Made by a program: the position numbers and the translations under genes. A stretch of DNA of 18,979 nt from an uncultured delta proteobacterium (GTDB lineage Bacteria > Desulfobacterota > WTBG01 > CAIYCZ01), in the NCBI GenBank assembly GCA_963803975.1, contig CAWDOY010000011.1, positions 1 to 18,979 on the forward strand. Direction: 5' to 3'. Numbering within the stretch: position 1 is the stretch's first letter; each line of letters begins with the position of its first letter. Below, piece after piece: positions 2-15,014 of this stretch. The notes beneath the pieces were generated by a model. It saw only the letters and a list, made by a program, of their open reading frames with translations. It was not told where the DNA came from and ran no database searches.

Positions 2-160
2 CATGATATTGCTGATATTGGCAAGTATGCTTCCAAACTGCTGTACCTGGATAAGAAAATTATATTTTATGGAAGCTTTGAAGATTTCTGCTCATCACCG
101 GATATGGCGAGCTACTTTGGCGAATTCGCCCAGCACCTCATCTGCCACCGGCATACGTAA
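2..160 (+). CDS. znuC: 3' end of metal (Zn/Mn) ABC transporter ATP-binding protein, ZnuC-like (partial, runs off the window start)
   Basis: Not in the ORF track. Frame 2 reads HDIADIGKYASKLLYLDKKIIFYGSFEDFCSSPDMASYFGEFAQHLICHRHT* (TAA 158-160). It has the H-switch 'HD', a His/Cys-rich tail, and a ZnuB-like permease downstream. Confidence 0.8.
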   Translation, partial: HDIADIGKYASKLLYLDKKIIFYGSFEDFCSSPDMASYFGEFAQHLICHRHT

Positions 161-166
161 TATCTT

Positions 167-197
167 TTCACCGCTGAGCACGCTGAGATCGCAGAGA
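167..197 (+). repeat. Left arm of inverted repeat flanking the GxxExxY gene; three 9-bp units CGC(T/A)GAG(CA/AT)
   Basis: TTCACCGCTGAGCACGCTGAGATCGCAGAGA matches the reverse complement of 594-624 at 27/31. Units lie at 172-180, 181-189 and 190-198. Confidence 0.9.
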
Positions 198-586
198 TGA
201 AAGCTGCAATAAATTCAATAACAGAAAGTATTATCAGTGCGGCAATTGCTGTTCATCGAGAGCTTGGTCCCGGGCTTTTGGAATCTGCTTATGAATCATG
301 TCTTGTTTATGAGTTACTGCAACAGGGTCTGACTGTTGAGCGGCAGAAGGCTTTGCCTGTTACATATCGGGGAGTAAAGATTGACTGCGGGTACCGTATC
401 GACCTGCTGGTAGAAGATGCCGTAATTGTTGAATTAAAGGCTGTGGAGAGTATAGAACCAATTCATGAAGCGCAGCTTTTGTCGTATCTAAAATTATCCG
501 GTTATCAGATTGGACTGCTTATTAATTTTAATGTAAGGATGCTGAAGCAGGGGATAAAAAGATTGGTAAATAACTTCAAAGAATAA
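197..586 (+). CDS. GxxExxY family protein (PD-(D/E)XK nuclease fold)
   Basis: Signature LGPGLLESAY (G-x-x-E-x-x-Y), catalytic-type motif RIDLLVE...IVELKAV, and C-terminal QLLSYLKLSG...GLLINFN; 129 aa. Confidence 0.95.
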   Translation: MKAAINSITESIISAAIAVHRELGPGLLESAYESCLVYELLQQGLTVERQKALPVTYRGVKIDCGYRIDLLVEDAVIVELKAVESIEPIHEAQLLSYLKLSGYQIGLLINFNVRMLKQGIKRLVNNFKE

Positions 587-593
587 TTGTTTT

Positions 594-624
594 TCTCTGC
601 GGTCTCAGCGATCTCTGCGGTGAA
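594..624 (-). repeat. Right arm of inverted repeat flanking the GxxExxY gene
   Basis: TCTCTGCGGTCTCAGCGATCTCTGCGGTGAA; its reverse complement matches 167-197 at 27/31. Confidence 0.9.
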
Positions 625-631
625 GTATATA

Positions 632-1444
632 ATGGAACTGATCAATTTTTTAAGCTACGGTTTTATCCAGCGGGCCCTGATTGCCGGCTCCTTTATCGGC
701 CTGCTCTGCTCCCTGCTCGGGGTTTTCCTGGTGCTCAGGCGCCTGTCCCTGATCGGGGACGGGCTCGCCCACGTAACCTTCGGCAGCATAGCGCTCGGGC
801 TGCTGCTTAATTTTTATCCGCTGTATATAGCCATTCCCGTGGTCATGCTCTGCTCTCTGGGAATTCTAAAACTGATGGAACGGGCGCGGCTTTACGGGGA
901 TGCCGCGATCGGCATCGTGTCGTCGGTGGGGATTGCCGGAGGCACGCTGATGGCAAGCCTTGCCGGCGGGTTTAATGTTGACCTGTTCAGCTATCTGTTT
1001 GGCAATATACTGGCAATAAGCACAACCGAGGTAGGTATCTCCATGGCGCTTTCCGGGGCGGTAATCATAACCATCGCGGTTTTTTATAATGAACTCTTTT
1101 CCCTGACCTTTGATGAAGAATTTGCCCGGGCCACCGGCATCAGGACTGAGAGAATAAATACGGTATTCATTCTTGCAACCGCCCTGACCGTTGTGCTTGC
1201 CACGCGGGTCGTCGGCATACTGCTGGTATCATCGCTTTTAATACTTCCCGCGGTGACCTCCCTGCAGCTGGCAAAGGGCTTTAAAATTGCCATAGTCATT
1301 TCCTGTATTACCGGGGTCCTGTCGGTGATTGCCGGCATTGTCGTCTCGTTTCTGATGAATCTTCCGGCTGGTGCAACTATCGTCATGCTTAACCTGCTTT
1401 TTTTCATTGCAGCCTTTATCTATCGAAGCGTGCACCGCGCATAG
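632..1444 (+). CDS. znuB: Metal (Zn/Mn) ABC transporter permease, ZnuB-like
   Basis: ABC-3 permease motifs LGVFLVLRRLSLIGDGLAH, LFSYLFGNIL, FDEEFARATG and VVGILLVSSLLILPA. The start is placed at ATG 632 (MELINFLSY) because the 587-631 extension translates the repeat arm. Confidence 0.92.
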   Translation: MELINFLSYGFIQRALIAGSFIGLLCSLLGVFLVLRRLSLIGDGLAHVTFGSIALGLLLNFYPLYIAIPVVMLCSLGILKLMERARLYGDAAIGIVSSVGIAGGTLMASLAGGFNVDLFSYLFGNILAISTTEVGISMALSGAVIITIAVFYNELFSLTFDEEFARATGIRTERINTVFILATALTVVLATRVVGILLVSSLLILPAVTSLQLAKGFKIAIVISCITGVLSVIAGIVVSFLMNLPAGATIVMLNLLFFIAAFIYRSVHRA

Positions 1445-4626: not shown

Positions 4627-4793
4627 GCAGAAGATGGCAAAACATACAAGACAGCTTTTTATCAGTCTCGACATGATTATATCTGTCGGGTATCGGCGCT
4701 AAAACACCTGCAAAGACAGAACTCTATCAAATAATCGCTGATCTGGCTGAATAGCATAGCAGCGGCGTGAAACGCCATATTGCACGGATAGTT

Positions 4794-4959
4794 CCCGAAT
4801 CCCGACACGTTCGACCGTTCGACAGGCTCACGGCTCACCGCAAGCGAGCCCCGAGCACGGTCACGATTGTTATCGGATCAACGATTGCTGATCGCTGAAA
4901 GCTGACGGCTGAAAGCTATTTTGCACGAATCCCGAACCCCGAACCACGAGTCCACGAAC
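4794..4959 (+). repeat. Stack of C-rich heptamer arrays with an embedded REP-like element
   Basis: CCCGAAT/CCCGACA (4794-4807); REP-like 4808-4848; GCTGA(T/A/C)N x4 (4887-4914); CACGAAT-CCCGAAC-CCCGAAC-CACGAGT-C-CACGAAC (4924-4959). Confidence 0.85.
4811..4836 (+). repeat. REP-like element (TTCGACAGGCTCA family), copy 1
   Basis: TCGACCGTTCGACAGGCTCACGGCTC is the exact 26-bp reverse complement of 7081-7106. Confidence 0.9.
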
Positions 4960-4976
4960 TTTACAAGGAGTAAGCC

Positions 4977-5728: not shown

Positions 5729-5830
5729 TATTCAAGTTACATGAATAAGACCCGGCTTGAGGTCAGGTTATTCAATAATACTTGAATAACGCCCGGCTTA
5801 TTGTTATGTTATTCAAGAAAACTTGAATAA
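5729..5830. promoter_or_regulatory. Three ~40-bp-spaced palindromes TTATTCAA-N6-TTGAATAA; putative operator array of the Fic-HTH gene
   Basis: TATTCAAGTTACATGAATA (5729-5747), GTTATTCAATAATACTTGAATAAC (5767-5790) and TTATTCAAGAAAACTTGAATAA (5809-5830). Both linkers contain CCCGGCTT. Confidence 0.7.
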
Positions 5831-5838
5831 GGGAAATC

Positions 5839-6988
5839 ATGGCTATGAGGACTAGCGGAACCTATATAAAACAGACTACCGGCTACAGGGCTTTTATTCC
5901 CGCCCCGCTGCCTCCCCGGCCGTCGATAAAACTTGATGGCAAACAGCAGCGGCTTCTTTCACAGGCAGACATGGCCCTGGCGCGGCTCGACGGACTGGGT
6001 CAGGTTCTCCCCGGCGCCGACCTGTTTATCTCCATGTACGTCAGAAAGGAGGCCCTTCTCAGCTCACAGATAGAGGGTACCCAGGCTTCACTTGAAGACC
6101 TTTTTGAATTTGAACGCGGAGAAAAACCGGAAAATATCAATGATGTTGCGGAGGTTGTAAACTATATCAAGGCATTACAGTACGGTATGCAGCGACTGGA
6201 CCGTTTTCCCATGAGCCTCCGCTTAATAAAAGAAATTCACCGGACCCTGCTGGAAGGGACGCGCGGGGGAAGCAAAACTCCCGGGGCATTCAGAAAATCG
6301 CAAAACTGGATCGGTCCTCCGGGCTGTACGCTCAATAATGCAGCGTTTGTTCCTCCCCCTCCGCATGAAGCAGACCGGGCCATGGGTGATCTTGAAAAAT
6401 ACATGCATAAGGCCGCGCACTTCCCCGTACTTATTGACTGCGCCCTTATGCACTATCAGTTTGAGACGATTCACCCCTTCCTGGATGGCAATGGCAGGCT
6501 GGGGCGGCTTCTGATTTCATTTTATCTCTACTGGAAAGGGGTATTACATAAGCCGCTTCTGTACCTGAGTTTTTTCCTGAAAAAATACCGGCAGGAATAT
6601 TATGACCGTCTGAACATGGTACGGGAGAACGGGGATTATGAGCAGTGGATCGCTTTTTTCCTGCAAGGAGTTGCAGAGACCGCGGCGTCTGCCGTCGACA
6701 CTGCAAAAAAAATTCTGGAGCTGCAGAACAGCCATCGAAACCTTCTCTGGCAGAAAAAAATTTCCTCACCTCTCGCGGTCGGTATACTGGAGAAGCTGTT
6801 TTATACCCCGTATGTGTCGGTAAATGACCTCGCAAAAGAATTCCGGATTTCCTTTCAGGCCGCGGCAACCCTGGTAACGCAGCTGGAAGGTGCCGGAATC
6901 CTCAGCGAAGTAACAGGCAGAAAGCGGGATAAGCGGTATATCTATAAGCAGTATCTGTTCAATCCTTGAAGAAGGCACGAAACCATAA
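5839..6988 (+). CDS. Fic family protein (N-terminal DUF4172-like region, C-terminal winged HTH)
   Basis: Fic motif HPFLDGNGRLGR and N-terminal inhibitory motif SSQIEG. The ORF as given stops at 6969 (YLFNP*); removing one base near 6958 gives the family-like ending YLSILEEGTKP* at 6988. Confidence 0.9.
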
Positions 6989-7030
6989 CGGCCCGGGCTG
7001 ACCGCAAGCGAGTCACTGGTCATGCTTTTT

Positions 7031-7163
7031 TAGTGATGCGCTGGCTGGCACCTTTATTGCGGTGCCCCTATGCCTGCCCCGAGCCGTGAGCCTGTCGAAC
7101 GGTCGAGGGGTGCCTGTGTGCCTTGTTATCACTAGTCACCAGCCACTAATCACTATCCACTAT
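7031..7163. repeat. Nested repeat cluster: heptamer IR arms around a REP-like element
   Basis: TAGTGAT..TGGCTGG (7031-7048) can pair with CCAGCCA..ATCACTA (7139-7155). Five heptamers (T/C)CAC(T/C)A(G/A/T) lie at 7129-7163. A REP-like segment 7076-7110 sits between TGCCT copies at 7071-7075 and 7111-7115. Confidence 0.75.
7081..7106 (-). repeat. REP-like element (TTCGACAGGCTCA family), copy 2
   Basis: GAGCCGTGAGCCTGTCGAACGGTCGA is the exact reverse complement of 4811-4836. Confidence 0.9.
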
Positions 7164-7165
7164 TT

Positions 7166-7598: not shown

Positions 7599-9618
7599 TT
7601 GATTACGAAAAAAGTTATGCTTCAGGAGAACTTATTCCTCAAACGAGAGTATTATTCTGACTCGATTTCCAATTTCCTAAAATCCACAAAAGAGGAAATT
7701 CTGGGAAAGCTGGCATTGAGAAATGACTTTTCTTTAGAGCAGACTCAACGTAGCGCATGGATTGAAGAAATAAACATCCTCCATAAAGTTTTGCGGACCA
7801 TATAATGGGTCAATCTATTTTGAATATTCGATCCCGCGCATGGGACAGCGGATAGACGTAGTATTATTAATTGGACCAGTAATTTTTGTCCTTGAATTTA
7901 AGGTCGGAGAAAAGGAGTTTACTGCTTATGCCACTGATCAGGTCTTCGACTACGCTTTAGATTTAAAGAACTTCCATGAATCAAGCCATGAACATTTTAT
8001 CGCTCCTATCCTCATCGCAACAGATGTAAAAAACGCAAATCCTATAGTTGCCTTAACACCGCAAAACGATAAGCTTTTCATTCCGGTTAAAACTAATGCC
8101 GCGATGCTCGGCGAAGCTATCAAGGAAGCATTAATTTTTACAGAAGGTCTAGACATTGATCATTCGCAATGGGAACGCGGTCGTTATTGCCCAACCCCAA
8201 CAATTATTGAAGCGGCGATGGCTCTTTATAACGGTCATTCGGTCGATGAAATTTCAAGAAGTGATGCAAGTGCAATTAACCTAAGTCAAACATCTGAAGC
8301 TGTTGCCGAAATCATTCGTGTATCAAAAGAAAAATCACATAAATCTATTTGTTTTGTAACCGGTGTGCCGGGTGCGGGAAAGACATTGGTGGGGCTTAAC
8401 ATCGCCACTACGCACATTGATAAATCAAACGACCTTTATAGTGTTTTTCTTTCCGGCAATGGTCCACTTGTAGCAATTCTACGCGAAGCTTTAGCTAGAG
8501 ATAAAGTCCAGCGGGAGAAAACAGAACGGACAAAAGATCAAAAAAAGTGATGCATGGGTGAAGTTAAAGATGTTCATCCAAAATGTCCATCATTTTCGCG
8601 ATGATTGCCTTGTTGATTTAAAATCACCTCCTATAGAGCATGTCGCGCTGTTTGACGAGGCTCAGCGCGCATGGAATCAAGACCAAACTTGTTCTTTTAT
8701 GAGGAGGAAAAAAAATACGCCAAACTTTAATCAATCCGAACCAGAATTTCTCATTTCATGCCTTGATCGCCACCCTGACTGGGCAGTTATTGTATGCCTT
8801 GTGGGAGGGGGGCAAGAGATAAATACAGGGGAAGCCGGAATAAGCGAATGGATAGACTCTTTAAACCGCTCTTTCCCGGACTGGCACGTGCATATTTCGC
8901 CGCGTCTTTCCGATTCCGAGTATGTTGCAGGTGGGGCAATACATAGTTTATCCTCTCGGAAAAATGTTTTCGAAAATGAAAGCCTGCATCTTGCTGTTTC
9001 AATGCGCTCTTTCCGTGCTGAAAATGTTTCTTTACTTGTAAAGCAATTACTCGATTGCAACCAATTAGAAGCCACAAAAACACTGGCTCAGATTAATTCA
9101 AAGTATCCGATTGTCTTAACCCGTGACCTTGGAAAAGCAAAAGCAGTGGCTTAAAGAGCAAGCACGTGGTTCTGAGACGGTATGGTATCGTTGTTTCCTC
9201 TCAGGCTCAACGTCTCAAACCTTTAGCAATTGATGTTCGTGTATCAACAGATCCAATCCACTGGTTCTTAGATGGAAAGGAAGATGTGCGGTCTTCATAT
9301 TATCTCGAAGATGTTGCAACAGAGTTTGACATTCAGGGATTAGAACTCGATTGGGCTTGTGTTACTTGGGATGGTGATTTTCGCTATACGCCATCAGGAT
9401 GGAAACATTTTTCATTTGTAGGCAGCAAGTGGAATAAAATCAAGAAAGAGGAACGCAAAGTTTACCTTAAAAATGCTTATCGTGTGCTCTTGACGCGGGC
9501 ACGGCAAGGAATGGTGATCGTCGTTCCTTCTGGCGATCCGGCTGATCTAACACGCAAGCCTGAATTTTATGATTCAACTTTTGAGTACTTAAAATCAATC
9601 GGCTTCGCAGTTATATAA
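7599..9618 (+). CDS. DUF2075 family protein (N-terminal PD-(D/E)XK-like region plus SF1/Schlafen-type helicase), split by several indels
   Basis: Four consecutive ORF pieces join into one protein: [15 protein letters not shown]...LEFKVG, Walker A GVPGAGKT, Walker [16 protein letters not shown] and [11 protein letters not shown]. Frame breaks occur near 7797, 8520-8570 and 9143-9178. It may be intact in vivo or a pseudogene. Confidence 0.85.
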
Positions 9619-9704: not shown

Positions 9705-10544
9705 ATGATTTCATTCCACCACCAGAACTCAATCCAGCTGAAATGTGAAATTGACCTGCAGAAATTGTTACTGACGGATAAGGAACGGAGAAGGTTTGAC
9801 TCAAACTGGCCTGAGTTTTTTGCTTCTGATCCCTGCAACAAAAAAATATATGATCGCAAAGGCGACAAACTCATCTATACGACAGAACAGCTGATTCCGG
9901 CAAAAAAAGACAAGCGGCGCCCGCCGTTATTACTTGTTCTTGGCAATCCAGCCTCTATTTCCATCGTTAACGGCATGTTCTTCGCCTTTGATGCAAAAGG
10001 CAAGGAACACCGCTTCTGGAAAGATATATTGAAGTCGGCAGGTATTCTTGAGCTTCAAACTGATTATACGCTATCCGCACGAAAACTTAACGAGCGGCGG
10101 CGAGATCAGTTACTGCATTTAGATTATAAGTCTCCATTCCGAATCGGGTTGTGTGTGTTCATCTCCAAGCCCAGTACTGCAAGTGAGCCTCCGTGGGCCG
10201 GTGTCGATGGCATACAGAAACTGATTGGTACGAAAGCACTGAGGCGCTTGGAGGTTGAGGAAAGAAAAAGGATTCTGGATTGTGCAAGAGAGTTTATGGA
10301 ATCACGTGGTTCAGCGGCAACATTTCAAAAAAATGCCTGGAATGGTCTCAAGTCTGACAAATACTCGGCATATAGTTTGGATTCAGCAAAAACAAATAAA
10401 TTGAAAGGTGCGTTGAGAGATTTGCCGCATATTCCACTTTACGGAGTTCCGCCGACACGTTTAGCCGGTTCAGCAAAAAAAGTTCTGGAGAAGTTTTTTA
10501 ATAAGGGGAAAAAGACAGGGGAATGCCGCAGGTTCGGGGCGTGA
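9705..10544 (+). CDS. Hypothetical protein with weak uracil-DNA glycosylase (MUG-like) motifs
   Basis: 279-aa ORF. LLLVLGNPASISIVNGMFFA...HRFWKDIL resembles MUG motif A (vlfvGiNPg..S...G..fa...NRFW), and PLYGVPPT resembles motif B. The ORF itself is likely; the family call is by eye only. Confidence 0.55.
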   Translation: MISFHHQNSIQLKCEIDLQKLLLTDKERRRFDSNWPEFFASDPCNKKIYDRKGDKLIYTTEQLIPAKKDKRRPPLLLVLGNPASISIVNGMFFAFDAKGKEHRFWKDILKSAGILELQTDYTLSARKLNERRRDQLLHLDYKSPFRIGLCVFISKPSTASEPPWAGVDGIQKLIGTKALRRLEVEERKRILDCAREFMESRGSAATFQKNAWNGLKSDKYSAYSLDSAKTNKLKGALRDLPHIPLYGVPPTRLAGSAKKVLEKFFNKGKKTGECRRFGA

Positions 10545-10604: not shown

Positions 10605-11341
10605 ATGCAGCATGGACAGCAGACCGTGTGGAAGTACAGCTACTGGCTTGATGACGGGCACCTGGCGCAGCTCAAACAACAGATGCAGGAGCGGGGAGTG
10701 GAGATGGTCTGTTCCCAGTACAGCCCGTGCGAGGTGCTGAAAGGCGAGATTGGGTACGCAGAGCCGCATGTGTGGCCGGTGTTGTGTTCCCCTGACGCAA
10801 CACCGTGGTACCGTGAGTCCCGGTTCAGCGGGCGAAACCTGGTTGTCTCATCATTTGCCCTCGACGACGGGTTTTCCGGGTTTCTTGAAACAACCATAAC
10901 CCCGGTCGCGTTTGAGCCTCCCCGCATGCCTGACCAGCACGGCAGGGAGGAGCTATCCGAGGACCGGACATATCTTGGCCGCGAGCCGGCGGCCTGGAGT
11001 GATTTCCCCGCAGAGTGGGCGGAGGAGATGGTCAAGGGCTTTGCCCGCATGACCGGCAATTCCGCAATTACCTTTCAGGACATCCTGATACGGTGGACGG
11101 CGGTGCACGCCAATTTCATAAAACCGAGCTTCCGGGCTGATAAAACATTCTTCAGCGCGCCCTACTCCACAGACGAGACCCGGTTTATCAGCACGTGCTG
11201 TGTGGAGCTTTTCAACCTTCTTGACTCAAGCGAGCAGGCGCTGCTGGTCAGGCGCGTGCATCGGAGCCGTGATGGCAGATGTCGCCCTCCAGGACCAGTA
11301 CGTATCTTGTCGTGCTGCACAAAAACATGAGCAGGATGTAA
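10605..11341 (+). CDS. Hypothetical protein, C-terminus probably frameshifted
   Basis: Strong SD AAAGGAGG before ATG 10605 and a 241-aa ORF. An alternative frame from about 11253 reads CIGAVMADVALQDQY, suggesting indels near the 3' end. The end coordinate is uncertain and the family is not recognised. Confidence 0.6.
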
Positions 11342-11527: not shown

Positions 11528-12359
11528 ATGGATATACCAAAACGAAAGCTCGGTAAAACCGGCGTTGAGGTAACGATTCTTGGCCTTGGCGGAGAAGGGG
11601 TCTTGAGGACCGACGGCTATGAAAAAGAGGCCTATGCGCTGATAAATAAGGCGATTGATCTGGGGATAAACTATTTTGAGTCTGCCCGCGCGTATTCCGG
11701 CAGCGAGGGATATTACGGGCTGGCCCTTAAAGAGCGACGGCGGAGATATTTCTGAACAGCAAGTCTCACGCCCGGGACAAGAAGGGCGCGCTGCAGCATC
11801 TGCACGAAACCCTGAAAAACATGAAAACCGATTATCTTGATCTCTGGCAGGTGCATGATGTGCGGACCGAGGAAGATATAGAAGAGATATTCGGTAGGAA
11901 CGGGGCGCTCGAGGCCTTCGTGGAAGCACGGGAAAAAGGCCTGGTGCGTTTTATCGGCGTAACCGGCCACCATGACCCGCAGATACTGAAACAATGCCTG
12001 GAGCTGTTTTCTTTTGACACGGTGCTGCTGCCAATAAATCCTGCCGAGCCCTGCTATGAGAGTTTCATTGATACCGTACTGCCCCTGGCCAACAAGAAGA
12101 AAATGGGTGTTATAGCCATGAAGGTCTATTTCCGCGGGTATGCCGCGAAGCTTCCGCAGTTTCAAGCCTGGAGCCGTTTTATCGCTTTGCCCTCTCCCAT
12201 AAAATATCAACTGCTGTAATCGGCTGTGACACGGTCAGGCAGCTTGAGGAAAATGTGCAATTTGCCGCTTCGTTCAAGCCGATGAGCAAAAAAGAGATGG
12301 ATGAGGTTGAGCAGCTCATTGCGCCGTATGCACGGAGACTGATGTATTATAAGCCGTGA
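11528..12359 (+). CDS. Aldo/keto reductase, split by two indels
   Basis: KRKLGKTGVEVTILGLGG, GINYFESARAY, FL.SK, DYLDLWQVHD, GLVRFIGVTGH and GVIAMK. A third frame continues FALSHKISTAVIGCDTVRQLEENV...MYYKP* (TGA 12357-12359). Breaks occur near 11741 and 12163. Confidence 0.9.
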
Positions 12360-12366
12360 GAAAGTA

Positions 12367-12522
12367 GGGGCTCGGGATTCGGGGTTAGGGATTCGTAAGA
12401 TAAAAGTGAAACGTGGAAGGTGAAACGTGAAAAGAGGCCGGTGAATAGGTGAATGGGTTAAAAGGTGAAGAGGCAACCCACCTTCGCGCAAGGCTACGGT
12501 GGGCAGGCAGGCAAAAGGCACA
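12367..12522 (+). repeat. Stack of G-rich short-unit arrays and a REP-like hairpin
   Basis: GGGCTCG-GGATTCG-GGGTTAG-GGATTCG (12368-12395); GTGAAAC-GTGGAAG-GTGAAAC-GTGAAAA (12406-12433); 8-mers GTGAATAG-GTGAATGG-GTTAAAAG-GTGAAGAG (12441-12472); hairpin CCCACC..GGTGGG (12477-12503); AGGCAAA-AGGCACA (12509-12522). Confidence 0.9.
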
Positions 12523-13216: not shown

Positions 13217-13402
13217 TCATAATGCTGCTTCTCATTTGCCGCAAATGATTGTATACTTGATACAGGGTAATAAATTGACAGGCCACAGCGGGGAGGCGAA
13301 AAACAGCCCGTAGCGGTCAGTTTCCTCCCCTTCTTAATCTTTCCTCCGCGTCCTCTGTGGTCAGGTTTTTACAAACCATCTGCAGCACAGGGAGAATCAA
13401 CT

Positions 13403-14299
13403 ATGAAAACAGCCGTCTCCAGGAAATTTCCGGTTACCATTGCGTTGCTTATGATCTGCCTCAGCGCCGGGCTGCTGGTACAGTGCACAAAACCTCAGCC
13501 CCCCGCGCAGGGGAAAGACCAGCTGGTAGCTGCGCTTGACGCGGCCTTTATCCAAATACTTTCCAATGGCACGTGGCGGGAGATCACAAAACCGCTCGGC
13601 CCGCTGGTAGTCAATATAGCCGACTGTTACCCGACCCCTGAAGAAGCGCCCTTCCCCGCGAACCCGACCGGCGCGCTTGCCGATATACTGAACAACAAAA
13701 AGATAAGGGTCGGCAGCTATCCGGATAAATACACCGGGTCCTTCAACGCCTATACCGAAGTGAACGTCCAGCTCCTGCGGGCAATTCTTGACGAGCTGGG
13801 CACCGCCTATAAGCTCTCCGGCCCGATAGAGATAGAGCCCGTCTATATCGACCCGCCCAGCAGCAGCATTCTCTTTACGAAACTGAACGAGGGTGCCTTT
13901 GACATCTCGGACATGAACAGCGCCCTGGGCGGGGTTTCCAACAGCCTGCGCCGGCGCAGCATGGCGCGCTATACCTGCACGATATTCGGCAGCGGCTGGT
14001 TCCTGCAGGTAAAGGAAAACTCCCCCTACAAAACCCTTGATGATTTCCGGGCTGACACAAAAGCAAAGCTCTGCTCCGGGATGCTTTCAAGCCAGCTCGG
14101 GAAGGACTATTTTGTGAACCAGCAGATCACCGCGCAATATGAGAACGATCTCGAGCTGTGCGGGCAGGGCGTTGTGGACGGCACCTATGACGCGTACCTG
14201 CACTTTGACCCGGCGCCGGTAAAAAGCGGGCTGCGCTCAATTGATACGGGGATCGTGTCGGGTGTTCCGCTCTGGGTTGCCGGCGGTGAGGATGAATAA
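13403..14299 (+). CDS. Family-3-like (amino acid type) solute-binding lipoprotein, apparently circularly permuted
   Basis: Hydrophobic leader with lipobox-like LLVQC; GALADILNNKKIRVG, LNEGAFDI, VKENSPYKTLDDF and VVDGTYDAYL are SBP_bac_3-like segments; SD GGGAG. Confidence 0.7.
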   Translation: MKTAVSRKFPVTIALLMICLSAGLLVQCTKPQPPAQGKDQLVAALDAAFIQILSNGTWREITKPLGPLVVNIADCYPTPEEAPFPANPTGALADILNNKKIRVGSYPDKYTGSFNAYTEVNVQLLRAILDELGTAYKLSGPIEIEPVYIDPPSSSILFTKLNEGAFDISDMNSALGGVSNSLRRRSMARYTCTIFGSGWFLQVKENSPYKTLDDFRADTKAKLCSGMLSSQLGKDYFVNQQITAQYENDLELCGQGVVDGTYDAYLHFDPAPVKSGLRSIDTGIVSGVPLWVAGGEDE

Positions 14300-14303
14300 A
14301 ACA

Positions 14304-14345
14304 GGGGCTCGGAATTCGGGGCTCGTGGCAAGTGAAAAATGGAAG
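14304..14345 (+). repeat. G-rich heptamer arrays, same families and order as 12368-12433
   Basis: GGGCTCG-GAATTCG-GGGCTCG (14305-14325), then GTGAAAA-ATGGAAG (14332-14345), starting 5 bp after the stop codon. Confidence 0.75.
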
Positions 14346-14393: not shown

Positions 14394-14753
14394 TTAATTG
14401 TTTTTCTGCTGAAACGATACCTGGTTGTTTACAGCTGATGTCCCCCTGGCTTCAGGAAGGTTTTCTTTTTTTATGAGCCGGTAGGTCTCCTCATAGATGG
14501 TTTTTCGCGGGCCTATTGCCACAAGTTCAATACTATGCGCTGGCGCGACATGATAAATGATTCTGAAGCGCCCCACCCGAAAACTCTTTAATCCCTGGAG
14601 CCCATCCCGGAGTGATTTCCCGATCCCGGGGTCCGCGACAATTAACTTGAGGGCGGATTTCACCTTCCTTTTTATCTGCGGATGCAGACGTTTCAGGAAC
14701 AGAGATGTTTCATCCGTTGCCCGTATCCTGTACTGGGTATGCCCGGCGGCCAT
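14394..14753 (-). CDS. Type II toxin, RelE/ParE family
   Basis: DPGIGKSLRDGLQGLKSFRVGRFRIIY...IGPRKTIY; starts 3 bp after the antitoxin stop. Confidence 0.9.
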   Translation of the reverse strand: MAAGHTQYRIRATDETSLFLKRLHPQIKRKVKSALKLIVADPGIGKSLRDGLQGLKSFRVGRFRIIYHVAPAHSIELVAIGPRKTIYEETYRLIKKENLPEARGTSAVNNQVSFQQKNN

Positions 14754-14756
14754 ATG

Positions 14757-15014
14757 CTACTCAAACAGCTCTTCAAGGGTGTAGAGTTTCGATTTCTTTT
14801 TAAGCGCGGCAAGGCCTTTTTTAATTTCGCCCGTTAAATCCTTATCCGCCCTGATCGCCGCTGTTTCCTGCAGACTTTCGAACTCTTCCGGGCTCACCAG
14901 AACTGCCGCAGGCCGTCCGTTTTTGGTAATAACAACTTCCTCGTCGGTTGAGGATACGGTCTCAACCAGCTTGCTCAGCTTCATTTTTGCTTCAGAGAGG
15001 GATAGTGTCTTCAT
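14757..15014 (-). CDS. Type II antitoxin, Phd/YefM family
   Basis: MKTLSLSEAKMKLSKLVETV...VVITKNGRPAAVLVSPEEFESLQET is a classic Phd/YefM sequence. Confidence 0.95.
   Translation of the reverse strand: MKTLSLSEAKMKLSKLVETVSSTDEEVVITKNGRPAAVLVSPEEFESLQETAAIRADKDLTGEIKKGLAALKKKSKLYTLEELFE

What the first reader, a model, noticed from the sequence alone, without database searches (positions are those of the whole stretch)
161..634. GxxExxY nuclease gene as an IR-flanked cassette inside the znuC-znuB operon
Seen: a ~460-bp unit separates znuC (stop 160) from znuB (ATG 632) and leaves both reading frames intact. It is bounded by 31-bp inverted arms (27/31 identical, one mismatch being a G-U wobble), each built of three 9-bp units. 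The left arm starts 6 bp after the znuC stop and runs into the GxxExxY ATG; the right arm ends 7 bp before the znuB ATG. The cargo looks AT-richer than znuB, and there is no transposase or clear target duplication. Known: znuC and znuB are normally adjacent, and GxxExxY is a PD-(D/E)XK-fold family with no established function. Inference: this is a selfish 'intervening' cassette, possibly mobilised by its own nuclease (homing-like or REP-like). In mRNA the arms could pair, loop out the gene and bring the znuC stop next to the znuB start, keeping the insertion nearly neutral; the stem could also be a processing substrate.
Basis: partly seen in the sequence, partly recalled or inferred. Interest (0 to 1): 0.85.

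Follow-up and report, generated by a model that had tools for sequence, protein, structure and literature searches.

The report
Repeat-armed nuclease cassette inside metal operon
A small nuclease-like gene of unknown function sits between two metal-transport genes, enclosed by mirror-image rows of a seven-letter DNA word; close relatives carry the same slot filled, emptied, reduced to a gene-less hairpin or replaced, which points to an undescribed kind of selfish gene cassette.

Summary
Observation confirmed. A GxxExxY gene (TIGR04256, PD-(D/E)XK fold; 197-586) lies between 31-nt inverted arms (167-197, 594-624; 27/31), each with three 7-nt boxes at 9-nt period, between znuC-like and znuB-like genes. 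Inverted arms flank 67 of 79 homologues (0 of 73 controls) at about 44 unrelated sites. Box word and spacing follow the protein tree across phyla. Most arms lack a gene (1 of 76 arm-first loci hold GxxExxY). Orthologues of this junction show four states: gene-bearing, gene-less, replaced by another repeat hairpin (znuB 99% identical) and empty (an empty/filled pair 96% identical). Here the gene looks like an old resident under purifying selection (dN/dS about 0.1), repeatedly lost. Best reading: a selfish cassette whose nuclease reads its own box arrays and spreads by cut-and-repair; mobility and activity are inferred, not shown. It works like rRNA intervening sequences and REPIN/RAYT but fails membership in both. 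No description found in ten paper searches; this scan noted the same element type in at least 35 other genomes.

The parts
2..160 (+). 3' end of a ZnuC-like ABC ATPase gene (cut by the contig start), stop TAA at 158-160
   Evidence: Open frame to 160; 100% and 85% matches in L081 and L082, where ABC-signature codons lie upstream; no family hit for the fragment alone
167..197 (+). Left arm: outer TTCAC end plus three 7-nt boxes at 172-178, 181-187 and 190-196 (9-nt period); ends on the A of the cargo ATG
197..586 (+). GxxExxY protein, 129 aa, minimal PD-(D/E)XK (Cas4/RecB-like) nuclease fold; G26-E29-Y32 motif; D69, E79, K81, Q93 and Y97 invariant in 39 aligned sequences
   Evidence: TIGR04256 E 5.6e-48; PF13366; alignment; AlphaFold pLDDT 94.3; fold searches; weak Cas4 HMM hits, E 1.6e-4
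594..624 (-). Right arm: three boxes on the minus strand (613-619, 604-610, 595-601) plus outer end; 27/31 complementary to the left arm
632..1444 (+). ZnuB-like ABC-3 metal permease gene, intact
   Evidence: PF00950 E 7.2e-66; below named equivalog cut-offs; orthologues begin at the same Met

Best explanation
A selfish gene cassette: a minimal PD-(D/E)XK nuclease gene between two inverted arrays of one 7-nt word, lodged in sense orientation in the few-nucleotide stop-to-start gap of a host operon and expressed by read-through. SHOWN: the arm-gene-arm unit; its presence at many unrelated sites and in several phyla, including archaea; co-inheritance of word and spacing with the protein clade; gene-less derivatives; filled, gene-less, replaced and empty alleles of this junction; purifying selection on the gene. 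INFERRED: the box arrays are binding sites for the encoded protein, which cuts at or beside the array or at a cassette-free allele, so that repair or gene conversion copies the unit in (a homing-like cycle). Cargo is then lost by deletion, leaving hairpins that far outnumber full cassettes, and hairpins are overwritten or invaded by other cassettes. Pairing of the arms in the mRNA probably keeps the insertion cheap by bringing the upstream stop near the downstream start, but this is a tolerance feature for which I found no compensatory signal.
For: Arms in 67 of 79 homologue loci against 0 of 73 displaced controls; both three-box arms parsed in 65 of 79, which fall into 44 site groups. Upstream ORF on the same strand in 52 of 65 (5 opposite, 8 not called), its stop a median 9 nt before the first box unit; downstream ORF on the same strand in 46 of 65 (13 opposite, 6 not called) (heuristic ORF calls). 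A second clade (42% identical to the window protein) has boxes ending AT instead of AG: both arms AT-type in 37 of 79 and AG-type in 1 of 79, against 67 of 79 AG and 0 of 79 AT in the first clade. Box spacing changes 9 times on the protein tree against 30.3 in shuffles (minimum 23; 66 rows), with single clades spanning several phyla. Arm-first scan: of 76 loci with at least 700 nt inside the arm, 1 holds GxxExxY, 48 have a gene-less partner arm (38 within 100 nt) and 27 have no parsed partner. This junction: L400 (filled) and L372 (1-nt spacer) are sisters with 96.4% identical znuB; L369 (znuB 99.4% identical to the window) carries an unrelated 81-nt repeat hairpin; L081 (G001) and L370 keep the outer arms with a second arm type nested inside. 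dN/dS of the gene is 0.098 and 0.105 against L400 and L371; 5 of 7 listed population variants in the gene are silent. L371 shows an intact copy between fragments of further copies, with the first bases of znuB duplicated, and L133 shows a duplicated right arm with the downstream gene start; both look like repair or template-switch products rather than precise transposition. The fold is PD-(D/E)XK with intact candidate catalytic residues.
Against: No activity, binding or mobility is shown. Arms and gene are physically linked, so their co-segregation shows joint inheritance, not recognition. Host phylum also has signal on the protein tree (23 changes against 36.1 shuffled), and some cross-phylum spread is hitch-hiking with the flanking genes (4 loci in 4 phyla share one site). 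At this junction the gene's divergence tracks znuB (81.7% and 89.5% against 76.1% and 87.8% nucleotide identity), which fits vertical inheritance; the empty allele may then be a precise loss rather than a pre-insertion state, and purifying selection also fits a host-beneficial gene. No shared target sequence and no consistent target duplication (12 of 65 flank pairs share 5 or more nt against 7.2 expected). Six PF05635 genes in the same genome, with no nuclease fold on record, are packaged the same way (IR score at least 12 in 5 of 6), so the mobilising activity could be supplied by something else. No residue-to-letter code could be established: the A-at-box-position-5 group is nearly one clade (2 changes). 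The L400 and L371 proteins each carry a change at a near-invariant residue (Q93, H90), a sign of decay or of assembly error.
Confidence: 0.55

Rival explanations
1. An mRNA intervening sequence: the arms are selected to pair in the transcript, and RNase III or the cargo protein cuts, or cuts and rejoins, the stem; the gene rides passively and moves by host recombination.
For: The stem is predicted with z -3.56. Strong sense orientation relative to the upstream gene (52 of 57 called). The 23S rRNA IVS of Coxiella has a 28-bp terminal stem, tandem heptamers before its ORF and is excised by RNase III (PMC4990558, passages). PF05635 (IVS protein) genes in this genome have the same packaging. Because all six boxes share one word, any register can pair, so my tests do not exclude pairing. 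tRNA-splicing endonuclease structures appear low in the fold lists (Z 5.2-5.6).
Against: Spacer letters do not agree between arms (0.411 against 0.394; 0.416 against 0.406 with one locus per site). In-register agreement is about equal to out-of-register and within-arm agreement (only box position 4 is marginal, 212-259 of 5000 permutations, uncorrected). No strand bias in G·U (45 against 44) or in duplex energy (26 against 29 loci). An RNA-run contig spans 554-718 across the right arm, and no znuC-znuB joint was listed (contigs only, DNA carry-over not excluded).
Confidence: 0.25
2. A RAYT/REPIN-like system: the gene is a domesticated, mostly vertically inherited mobiliser, and the short gene-less hairpins are the units that actually replicate.
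For: Gene-less pairs dominate; there is one intact gene and 14 other arm matches in G000; word type is specific to protein clade, as described for RAYT-REPIN pairs (PMC3337134, passages); the gene is vertically inherited under purifying selection at this site.
Against: The protein is PD-(D/E)XK, not HUH/Y1. Gene-less pairs are heterogeneous in inner length (9 to over 250 nt), and some keep gene remnants: truncated GxxExxY between arms in L120 and a frameshifted copy in L133. That fits decay scars better than a replicating unit of fixed size. Copy number is low (16 matches).
Confidence: 0.12
3. A host-beneficial accessory gene (for example a defence or RNA-processing nuclease) with autoregulatory operator arrays; the variation at the junction is ordinary gain and loss at a repeat-rich intergenic hotspot.
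For: dN/dS about 0.1, similar to znuB (0.06-0.09), over a long vertical history. 60 of 112 distinct orthologous junctions are longer than 30 nt and many hold unrelated repeat arrays, so the site collects such sequence anyway.
Against: No PADLOC defence family matches beyond weak Cas4 similarity. About 44 functionally unrelated host sites. Repeated loss in very close relatives, and many broken copies. An operator downstream of the gene, mirrored, is unusual (my knowledge).
Confidence: 0.08

Closest known systems
ORF-bearing intervening sequences (IVS) of 23S rRNA, e.g. Coxiella burnetii, with S23p / 23S_rRNA_IVP (PF05635) (PMC4990558; passages seen)
   Same: About 430-470 nt; small ORF enclosed by terminal inverted repeats that form a stem of about 30 bp; tandem heptamers just before the ORF start; patchy distribution; described as selfish. 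PF05635 genes in this genome sit between inverted short-repeat arms next to protein-coding sequence.
   Different: Lies between protein-coding genes, not in rRNA; the cargo is a PD-(D/E)XK protein, not a four-helix bundle; arms are periodic box arrays with free spacer letters; RNase III excision is not shown here.
REPIN / RAYT systems (PMC3337134; passages seen)
   Same: Short gene flanked by inverted repeats; many gene-less inverted doublets elsewhere in the genome; protein type tied to repeat type.
   Different: RAYT is an HUH/Y1 transposase of IS200 kin, and REPs are themselves short palindromes. Here the protein is PD-(D/E)XK, the arms are tandem non-palindromic words, copies are few, and the gene occurs at many operon-internal sites.
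STRR heptamer hairpins of cyanobacteria, e.g. between hupS and hupL (PMC2670836; passages seen)
   Same: Intercistronic hairpins built of 7-bp repeats, function unknown, proposed to aid transcript stability or translational coupling. They resemble the gene-less state of this element.
   Different: No associated gene is described in the passages read; different words; I did not test cyanobacterial STRRs for cargo genes.
Free-standing homing endonuclease genes (recalled, no call)
   Same: Single nuclease gene in an intergenic position, with filled and empty alleles, decay and purifying selection: a cycle of invasion and loss.
   Different: Known ones recognise one long conserved target and have no arms; here there are about 44 unrelated sites and obligatory-looking arms.
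PDDEXK_3 / GxxExxY family (PF13366, TIGR04256); listed as function 'Unknown' with multiple transfers and mixed bacterial and archaeal clades (PMC3424549; table row seen)
   Same: The cargo protein is a full member.
   Different: The arms and cassette organisation are not mentioned in the passage seen.

Membership tests
GxxExxY / PDDEXK_3 (TIGR04256, PF13366) | HMM score above the curated cut-off, GxxExxY motif | tested here: met
   162.1 bits against 35; 156.1 against 22; G26, E29 and Y32 invariant
PD-(D/E)XK nuclease superfamily | alpha/beta restriction-endonuclease-like core with D...(D/E)xK | tested here: met
   Model pLDDT 94.3; the list is dominated by PD-(D/E)XK enzymes: BpuSI Z 7.8, rmsd 3.0, 96 aligned; Cas4 SSO0001 Z 7.6, rmsd 4.8, 104 aligned (none reaches Z 8); Foldseek best Cas4 4ic1, E 1.8e-3; D69, E79 and K81 invariant (their catalytic role is recalled)
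PD-(D/E)XK nuclease superfamily | nuclease activity and substrate | not testable with these tools
   needs an assay
23S rRNA intervening sequence (IVS) | located within an rRNA gene | tested here: not met
   Flanked by protein-coding ABC transporter genes; no matching Rfam family near the cassette at E up to 1
23S rRNA intervening sequence (IVS) | terminal inverted repeats forming a stem around an ORF | tested here: met
23S rRNA intervening sequence (IVS) | S23p / PF05635 cargo | tested here: not met
   The cargo hits only PF13366
23S rRNA intervening sequence (IVS) | excision from the transcript by RNase III | tested here: inconclusive
   Only assembled contigs of two RNA runs were available; one bridges the right arm; contigs cannot show ends
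REPIN/RAYT | HUH/Y1 tyrosine transposase | tested here: not met
   Families and fold are PD-(D/E)XK
REPIN/RAYT | gene-less inverted doublets dispersed in the genome and tied to a protein type | tested here: met
Insertion sequence / MITE | transposase (DDE, HUH, Ser or Tyr) encoded within | tested here: not met
   The single ORF is GxxExxY
Insertion sequence / MITE | target-site duplication of fixed length | tested here: inconclusive
   No consistent length over 65 loci (12 with 5 or more nt against 7.2 expected); the L400/L372 pair allows a 3-nt AT-rich duplication or microhomology, too short to tell from chance
Homing endonuclease gene | one conserved cognate insertion site | tested here: not met
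   65 loci fall into 44 site groups; outer flanks conserved over about 3 nt only
Homing endonuclease gene | cleaves the empty allele and converts it | not testable with these tools
   needs an assay; the L372/L400 pair gives a natural substrate
Cas4 | Fe-S cysteine cluster and CRISPR-cas context | tested here: not met
   Only weak Cas4 HMM hits over residues 42-100; one near-invariant Cys only (C35); no cas genes among the 22 window proteins scanned

The most novel reading that the evidence does not exclude
GxxExxY is the self-encoded mobiliser of a new class of selfish element in bacteria and archaea: a minimal PD-(D/E)XK enzyme that reads a clade-specific heptamer code in its own arms, targets stop-to-start gaps of operons by gene architecture rather than by sequence, and spreads by cut-and-copy. 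Its gene-less scars, together with the four-helix-bundle cassettes, would then account for rRNA intervening sequences and STRR-type intercistronic hairpins as one superfamily.
Probability: 0.3. Interest if true: 0.9.

Novelty: new variant of a known kind. Interest (0 to 1): 0.68.

Why it matters
It gives a widespread protein family of unknown function (GxxExxY/PDDEXK_3) a specific, testable substrate: its own box arrays, and a natural empty/filled allele pair 96% identical. It links three unexplained things: ORF-bearing rRNA intervening sequences, heptamer hairpins between operon genes, and this nuclease family. If the protein is the mobiliser, it would be a 129-aa site-specific system with a swappable recognition word and an element class outside IS, REPIN and homing-endonuclease categories. 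It also shows that operon junctions in these sediment bacteria turn over between strains whose flanking genes are over 99% identical.

Tried and rejected
Recent insertion at this site: rejected, because the gene's divergence tracks znuB and arms or gene recur in 6 of the 8 rows of the clade; gain versus loss cannot be polarised with certainty. Compensatory covariation of an RNA stem: the first test looked positive for box letters, but the register test showed it is word homogeneity. Slipped-register pairing of spacers: weak and inconsistent (left spacer 2 = right spacer 1 in 8 of 28 against 3.4 expected, 28 of 2000 permutations, one of five tests); not pursued. Target duplication: none consistent. 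Splice joint: the joints 196>595 (DNA run X2) and 198>595 (RNA run X19) have 27-letter sides made of arm only and unknown sequence between, so they most likely come from other hairpin copies; X19 barely covers the gene, but only about half of that run was read, so this is no evidence; no silent control stretch was laid. Residue-letter code near the N-terminus: S9 goes with A at box position 5 in 7 of 8 but also with G in 11 of 58, and the A group is nearly one clade; inconclusive. No sequence match in the PDB, no match in 50,697 phage records, 8 plasmid records only, all non-mobilizable by the collection's typing. No Rfam family for the arms. The first dN/dS values were out of register and were discarded; one search has the corrected ones. 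Rows left out: L044, L056 and several genome-search loci were dropped from alignment A1 after stop-codon errors (39 sequences kept); L168 was left out of the second clade as a duplicate of the query locus; 45 of 121 arm-first loci had under 700 nt of flank and were not counted (one of them, L350, holds GxxExxY); 6 of 160 znuB loci had no znuC hit, among them L370 and L371, which were read by eye, and L371's contig starts inside the cassette so its znuC side is not seen. No complex prediction was run. Paper searches that found no description: GxxExxY (3 papers, one passage read, incidental; the other seen as a listing only), PDDEXK_3, TIGR04256/TIGR02436/PF05635/23S_rRNA_IVP (listings only), and word combinations; two searches were for REPIN and STRR background. 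The library lacks most subscription journals and I opened no supplements, so a description may exist there.

Full report
OBSERVATION. The window begins in the 3' end of an ABC ATPase gene (stop 158-160), followed by a 129-aa ORF at 197-586 and an ABC-3 metal permease at 632-1444. Inverted arms lie at 167-197 and 594-624, 27 of 31 complementary, 6 nt after the upstream stop and 7 nt before the downstream ATG. Each arm has three 7-nt boxes at 9-nt period. The pattern has 16 matches in the genome and none in two shuffles. The region folds with the arms paired, z -3.56. Contigs of two other DNA runs carry the same arrangement. 'znuC' and 'znuB' are fair working names, but the permease is below the named equivalog cut-offs.

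THE PROTEIN. It is a full GxxExxY member (TIGR04256; PF13366) and the only intact copy in G000; a frameshifted relic lies on contig C8. The AlphaFold model (pLDDT 94.3, 39 sequences) matches PD-(D/E)XK enzymes, with Cas4, lambda-exonuclease and restriction-enzyme domains on top. Scores are middling (Z up to 7.8), as usual for such a small core. D69, E79, K81, Q93 and Y97 are invariant; that these are the catalytic and RecB-type motif residues is recalled knowledge. A 2012 survey lists the family as function unknown with multiple transfers (PMC3424549, table row).

THE FAMILY-WIDE PATTERN. Of 79 close homologue loci, 67 have an inverted repeat scoring at least 12 around the gene, against 0 of 73 windows displaced by 600 nt. 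Both three-box arms parse in 65, and these fall into 44 site groups. By heuristic ORF calls the upstream gene is on the same strand in 52 of 65 and ends a median 9 nt before the first box unit, exactly as here. A second clade, found with locus L128, uses boxes ending in AT: 37 of 79 have both arms of that type and 1 of 79 the AG type, while the first clade has 67 of 79 AG and 0 of 79 AT. G001 carries one cassette of each type. On the protein tree box spacing needs 9 changes against 30.3 for shuffled labels, the CAC/CGC letter 11 against 21.6, and host phylum 23 against 36.1 (quick tree, few columns, many open forks). So arms and gene travel together. Being linked, this does not by itself prove that the protein reads the arms.

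ARMS WITHOUT GENES. G000 has such gene-less pairs on C42 and C2; G001, G002 and G003 have 21, 28 and 8 arm matches. Some pairs retain gene remnants (L120, L133). Orthologous junctions of G000 and G001 often hold different arrays.

HISTORY OF THIS JUNCTION. Among 160 loci of the permease gene, 154 show the ATPase upstream; 90 of these have spacers up to 30 nt, and the commonest state is a 1-nt spacer. In the eight-row clade around the window there are four states. Gene-bearing: window, L371 (znuB 87.8% nt; znuC side not on the contig) and L400 (76.1%). Gene-less with the same arm type: L081 (G001) and L370 keep the outer arms with an AT-type arm pair and a REP-like insert nested inside, and L082 (G002) keeps the left arm. 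Replaced: L369, 99.4% identical in znuB, has an unrelated 81-nt repeat hairpin. Empty: L372 has a 1-nt spacer and is sister to L400 at 96.4% znuB identity. The gene diverges in step with znuB (dS 0.87 and 0.40 against 1.25 and 0.50) under dN/dS about 0.1, and 5 of 7 listed variants in population contigs are silent. The simplest reading is an old resident, lost precisely once, stripped of cargo more than once and overwritten once. Repeated re-entry at the same slot is not excluded. In L371 the intact copy lies between fragments of further copies and the first bases of znuB are duplicated, which suggests copying by repair or template switching.

RNA STEM OR PROTEIN-READ ARRAY. Within a locus the two arms agree in box letters and spacer lengths far above permutation (0.95 against 0.49; 0.74 against 0.46; 0.93 against 0.78; lengths 0.99 against 0.59), but not in spacer letters (0.41 against 0.39) (same with one locus per site). 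In-register agreement is no higher than out-of-register or within-arm agreement, apart from a marginal excess at one position. G·U-type mismatches are split 45 to 44 between strands. So what is conserved is one word repeated six times at a fixed pitch, as expected for protein-binding arrays (inference), and not a base-by-base tuned helix. Pairing is still possible and may matter for tolerance: it would bring the upstream stop near the downstream start, and a GGTGA at 619-623 could serve as the permease's ribosome-binding site (anti-SD recalled; this site only). RNA-run contigs include one piece across gene end, right arm and znuB (554-718) and no znuC-znuB joint. They are contigs from one study and may hold DNA, so this weighs lightly.

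MECHANISM AND RIVALS. Most likely (0.55) a selfish cassette whose nuclease recognises its box arrays and spreads by cut-and-repair, leaving hairpin scars. Rivals are an mRNA intervening sequence processed at the stem (0.25), a RAYT/REPIN-like arrangement (0.12) and a beneficial accessory gene at a hotspot (0.08). No step of cutting, binding or movement has been shown. Against the favoured model, five of six PF05635 genes in this genome have the same packaging without a known nuclease, so a shared host or trans-acting route is possible.

COMPARISON WITH KNOWN SYSTEMS. It works like ORF-bearing 23S rRNA IVS, which in Coxiella has a 28-bp stem, tandem heptamers before the ORF and RNase III excision (PMC4990558, passages); like REPIN/RAYT (PMC3337134, passages); and its gene-less state resembles STRR hairpins (PMC2670836, passages). 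It is a member of none: not in rRNA, no S23p, no HUH or other transposase, no single target site. Ten paper searches gave no description of the cassette; subscription journals and supplements were not seen. Earlier notes of this scan report the same element type in at least 35 genomes; they are unchecked AI notes, used as leads only.

VERDICT. Real, and one instance of a widespread, apparently undescribed cassette. This site adds a four-state allele series with a near-isogenic empty/filled pair, and tests that favour word arrays over a tuned RNA stem. New variant of a known kind (IVS-like packaging, new cargo and location); interest 0.68.

Noticed in passing
window 7840-9618 (+): One Schlafen-group-3 helicase gene (PF09848; PADLOC candidate defence system PDC-S41, consecutive profile segments 70-300, 304-497, 507-651) is split into three ORFs, by frameshifts or assembly errors.
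   Followed up: partly
window 5738-5830 and 5839-6969 (+): A Fic-family gene is preceded by a 41-bp direct repeat containing inverted TTATTCAA-type half-sites, probably an autoregulatory operator for its C-terminal HTH.
   Followed up: no
window about 4780-4965, 6980-7165, 12355-12520, 14300-14345: Further intergenic arrays of degenerate 7-8-nt words, like the arms found around PF05635 genes elsewhere in this genome; probably gene-less scars of related cassettes.
   Followed up: partly
window about 13340-13365 (-): A degenerate two-box arm of the same family as the finding's arms, just upstream of ORF 13403.
   Followed up: no
window about 1535-1650: REP-like palindromic element (CCCGCGAAAG...GGGAATGAC type) between the permease gene and the DUF3015 gene; family name not tested.
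   Followed up: no
window 14394-15014 (-): ParE/RelE-like toxin and Phd/YefM antitoxin pair.
   Followed up: no
window 9705-10544, 10605-11330, 13403-14299 (+): Three ORFs of 241-298 aa without Pfam or NCBIfam hits; the first two also lack PADLOC hits.
   Followed up: no
G000 C9, C14, C15, C33, C44, C47 (L529-L534): Six 23S_rRNA_IVP (PF05635) genes, five with clear inverted arms of other short words.
   Followed up: partly
L133 (G000:C8 about 76,850-77,350) and L119 (G002): Frameshifted GxxExxY relic with a third arm word (CACGAAT type) at the same site in both genomes; in G000 the right arm and the first bases of the downstream gene are duplicated.
   Followed up: partly
L016, L054, L060, L072: The same cassette at the same site in four phyla, so the cassette also travels with its flanking genes.
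   Followed up: partly
L452, L448, L451, L454, L517, L505, L512, L481 and others: More distant orthologues of this junction hold gene-less hairpins built from many different short words; the junction is a hotspot for the whole repeat superfamily.
   Followed up: partly
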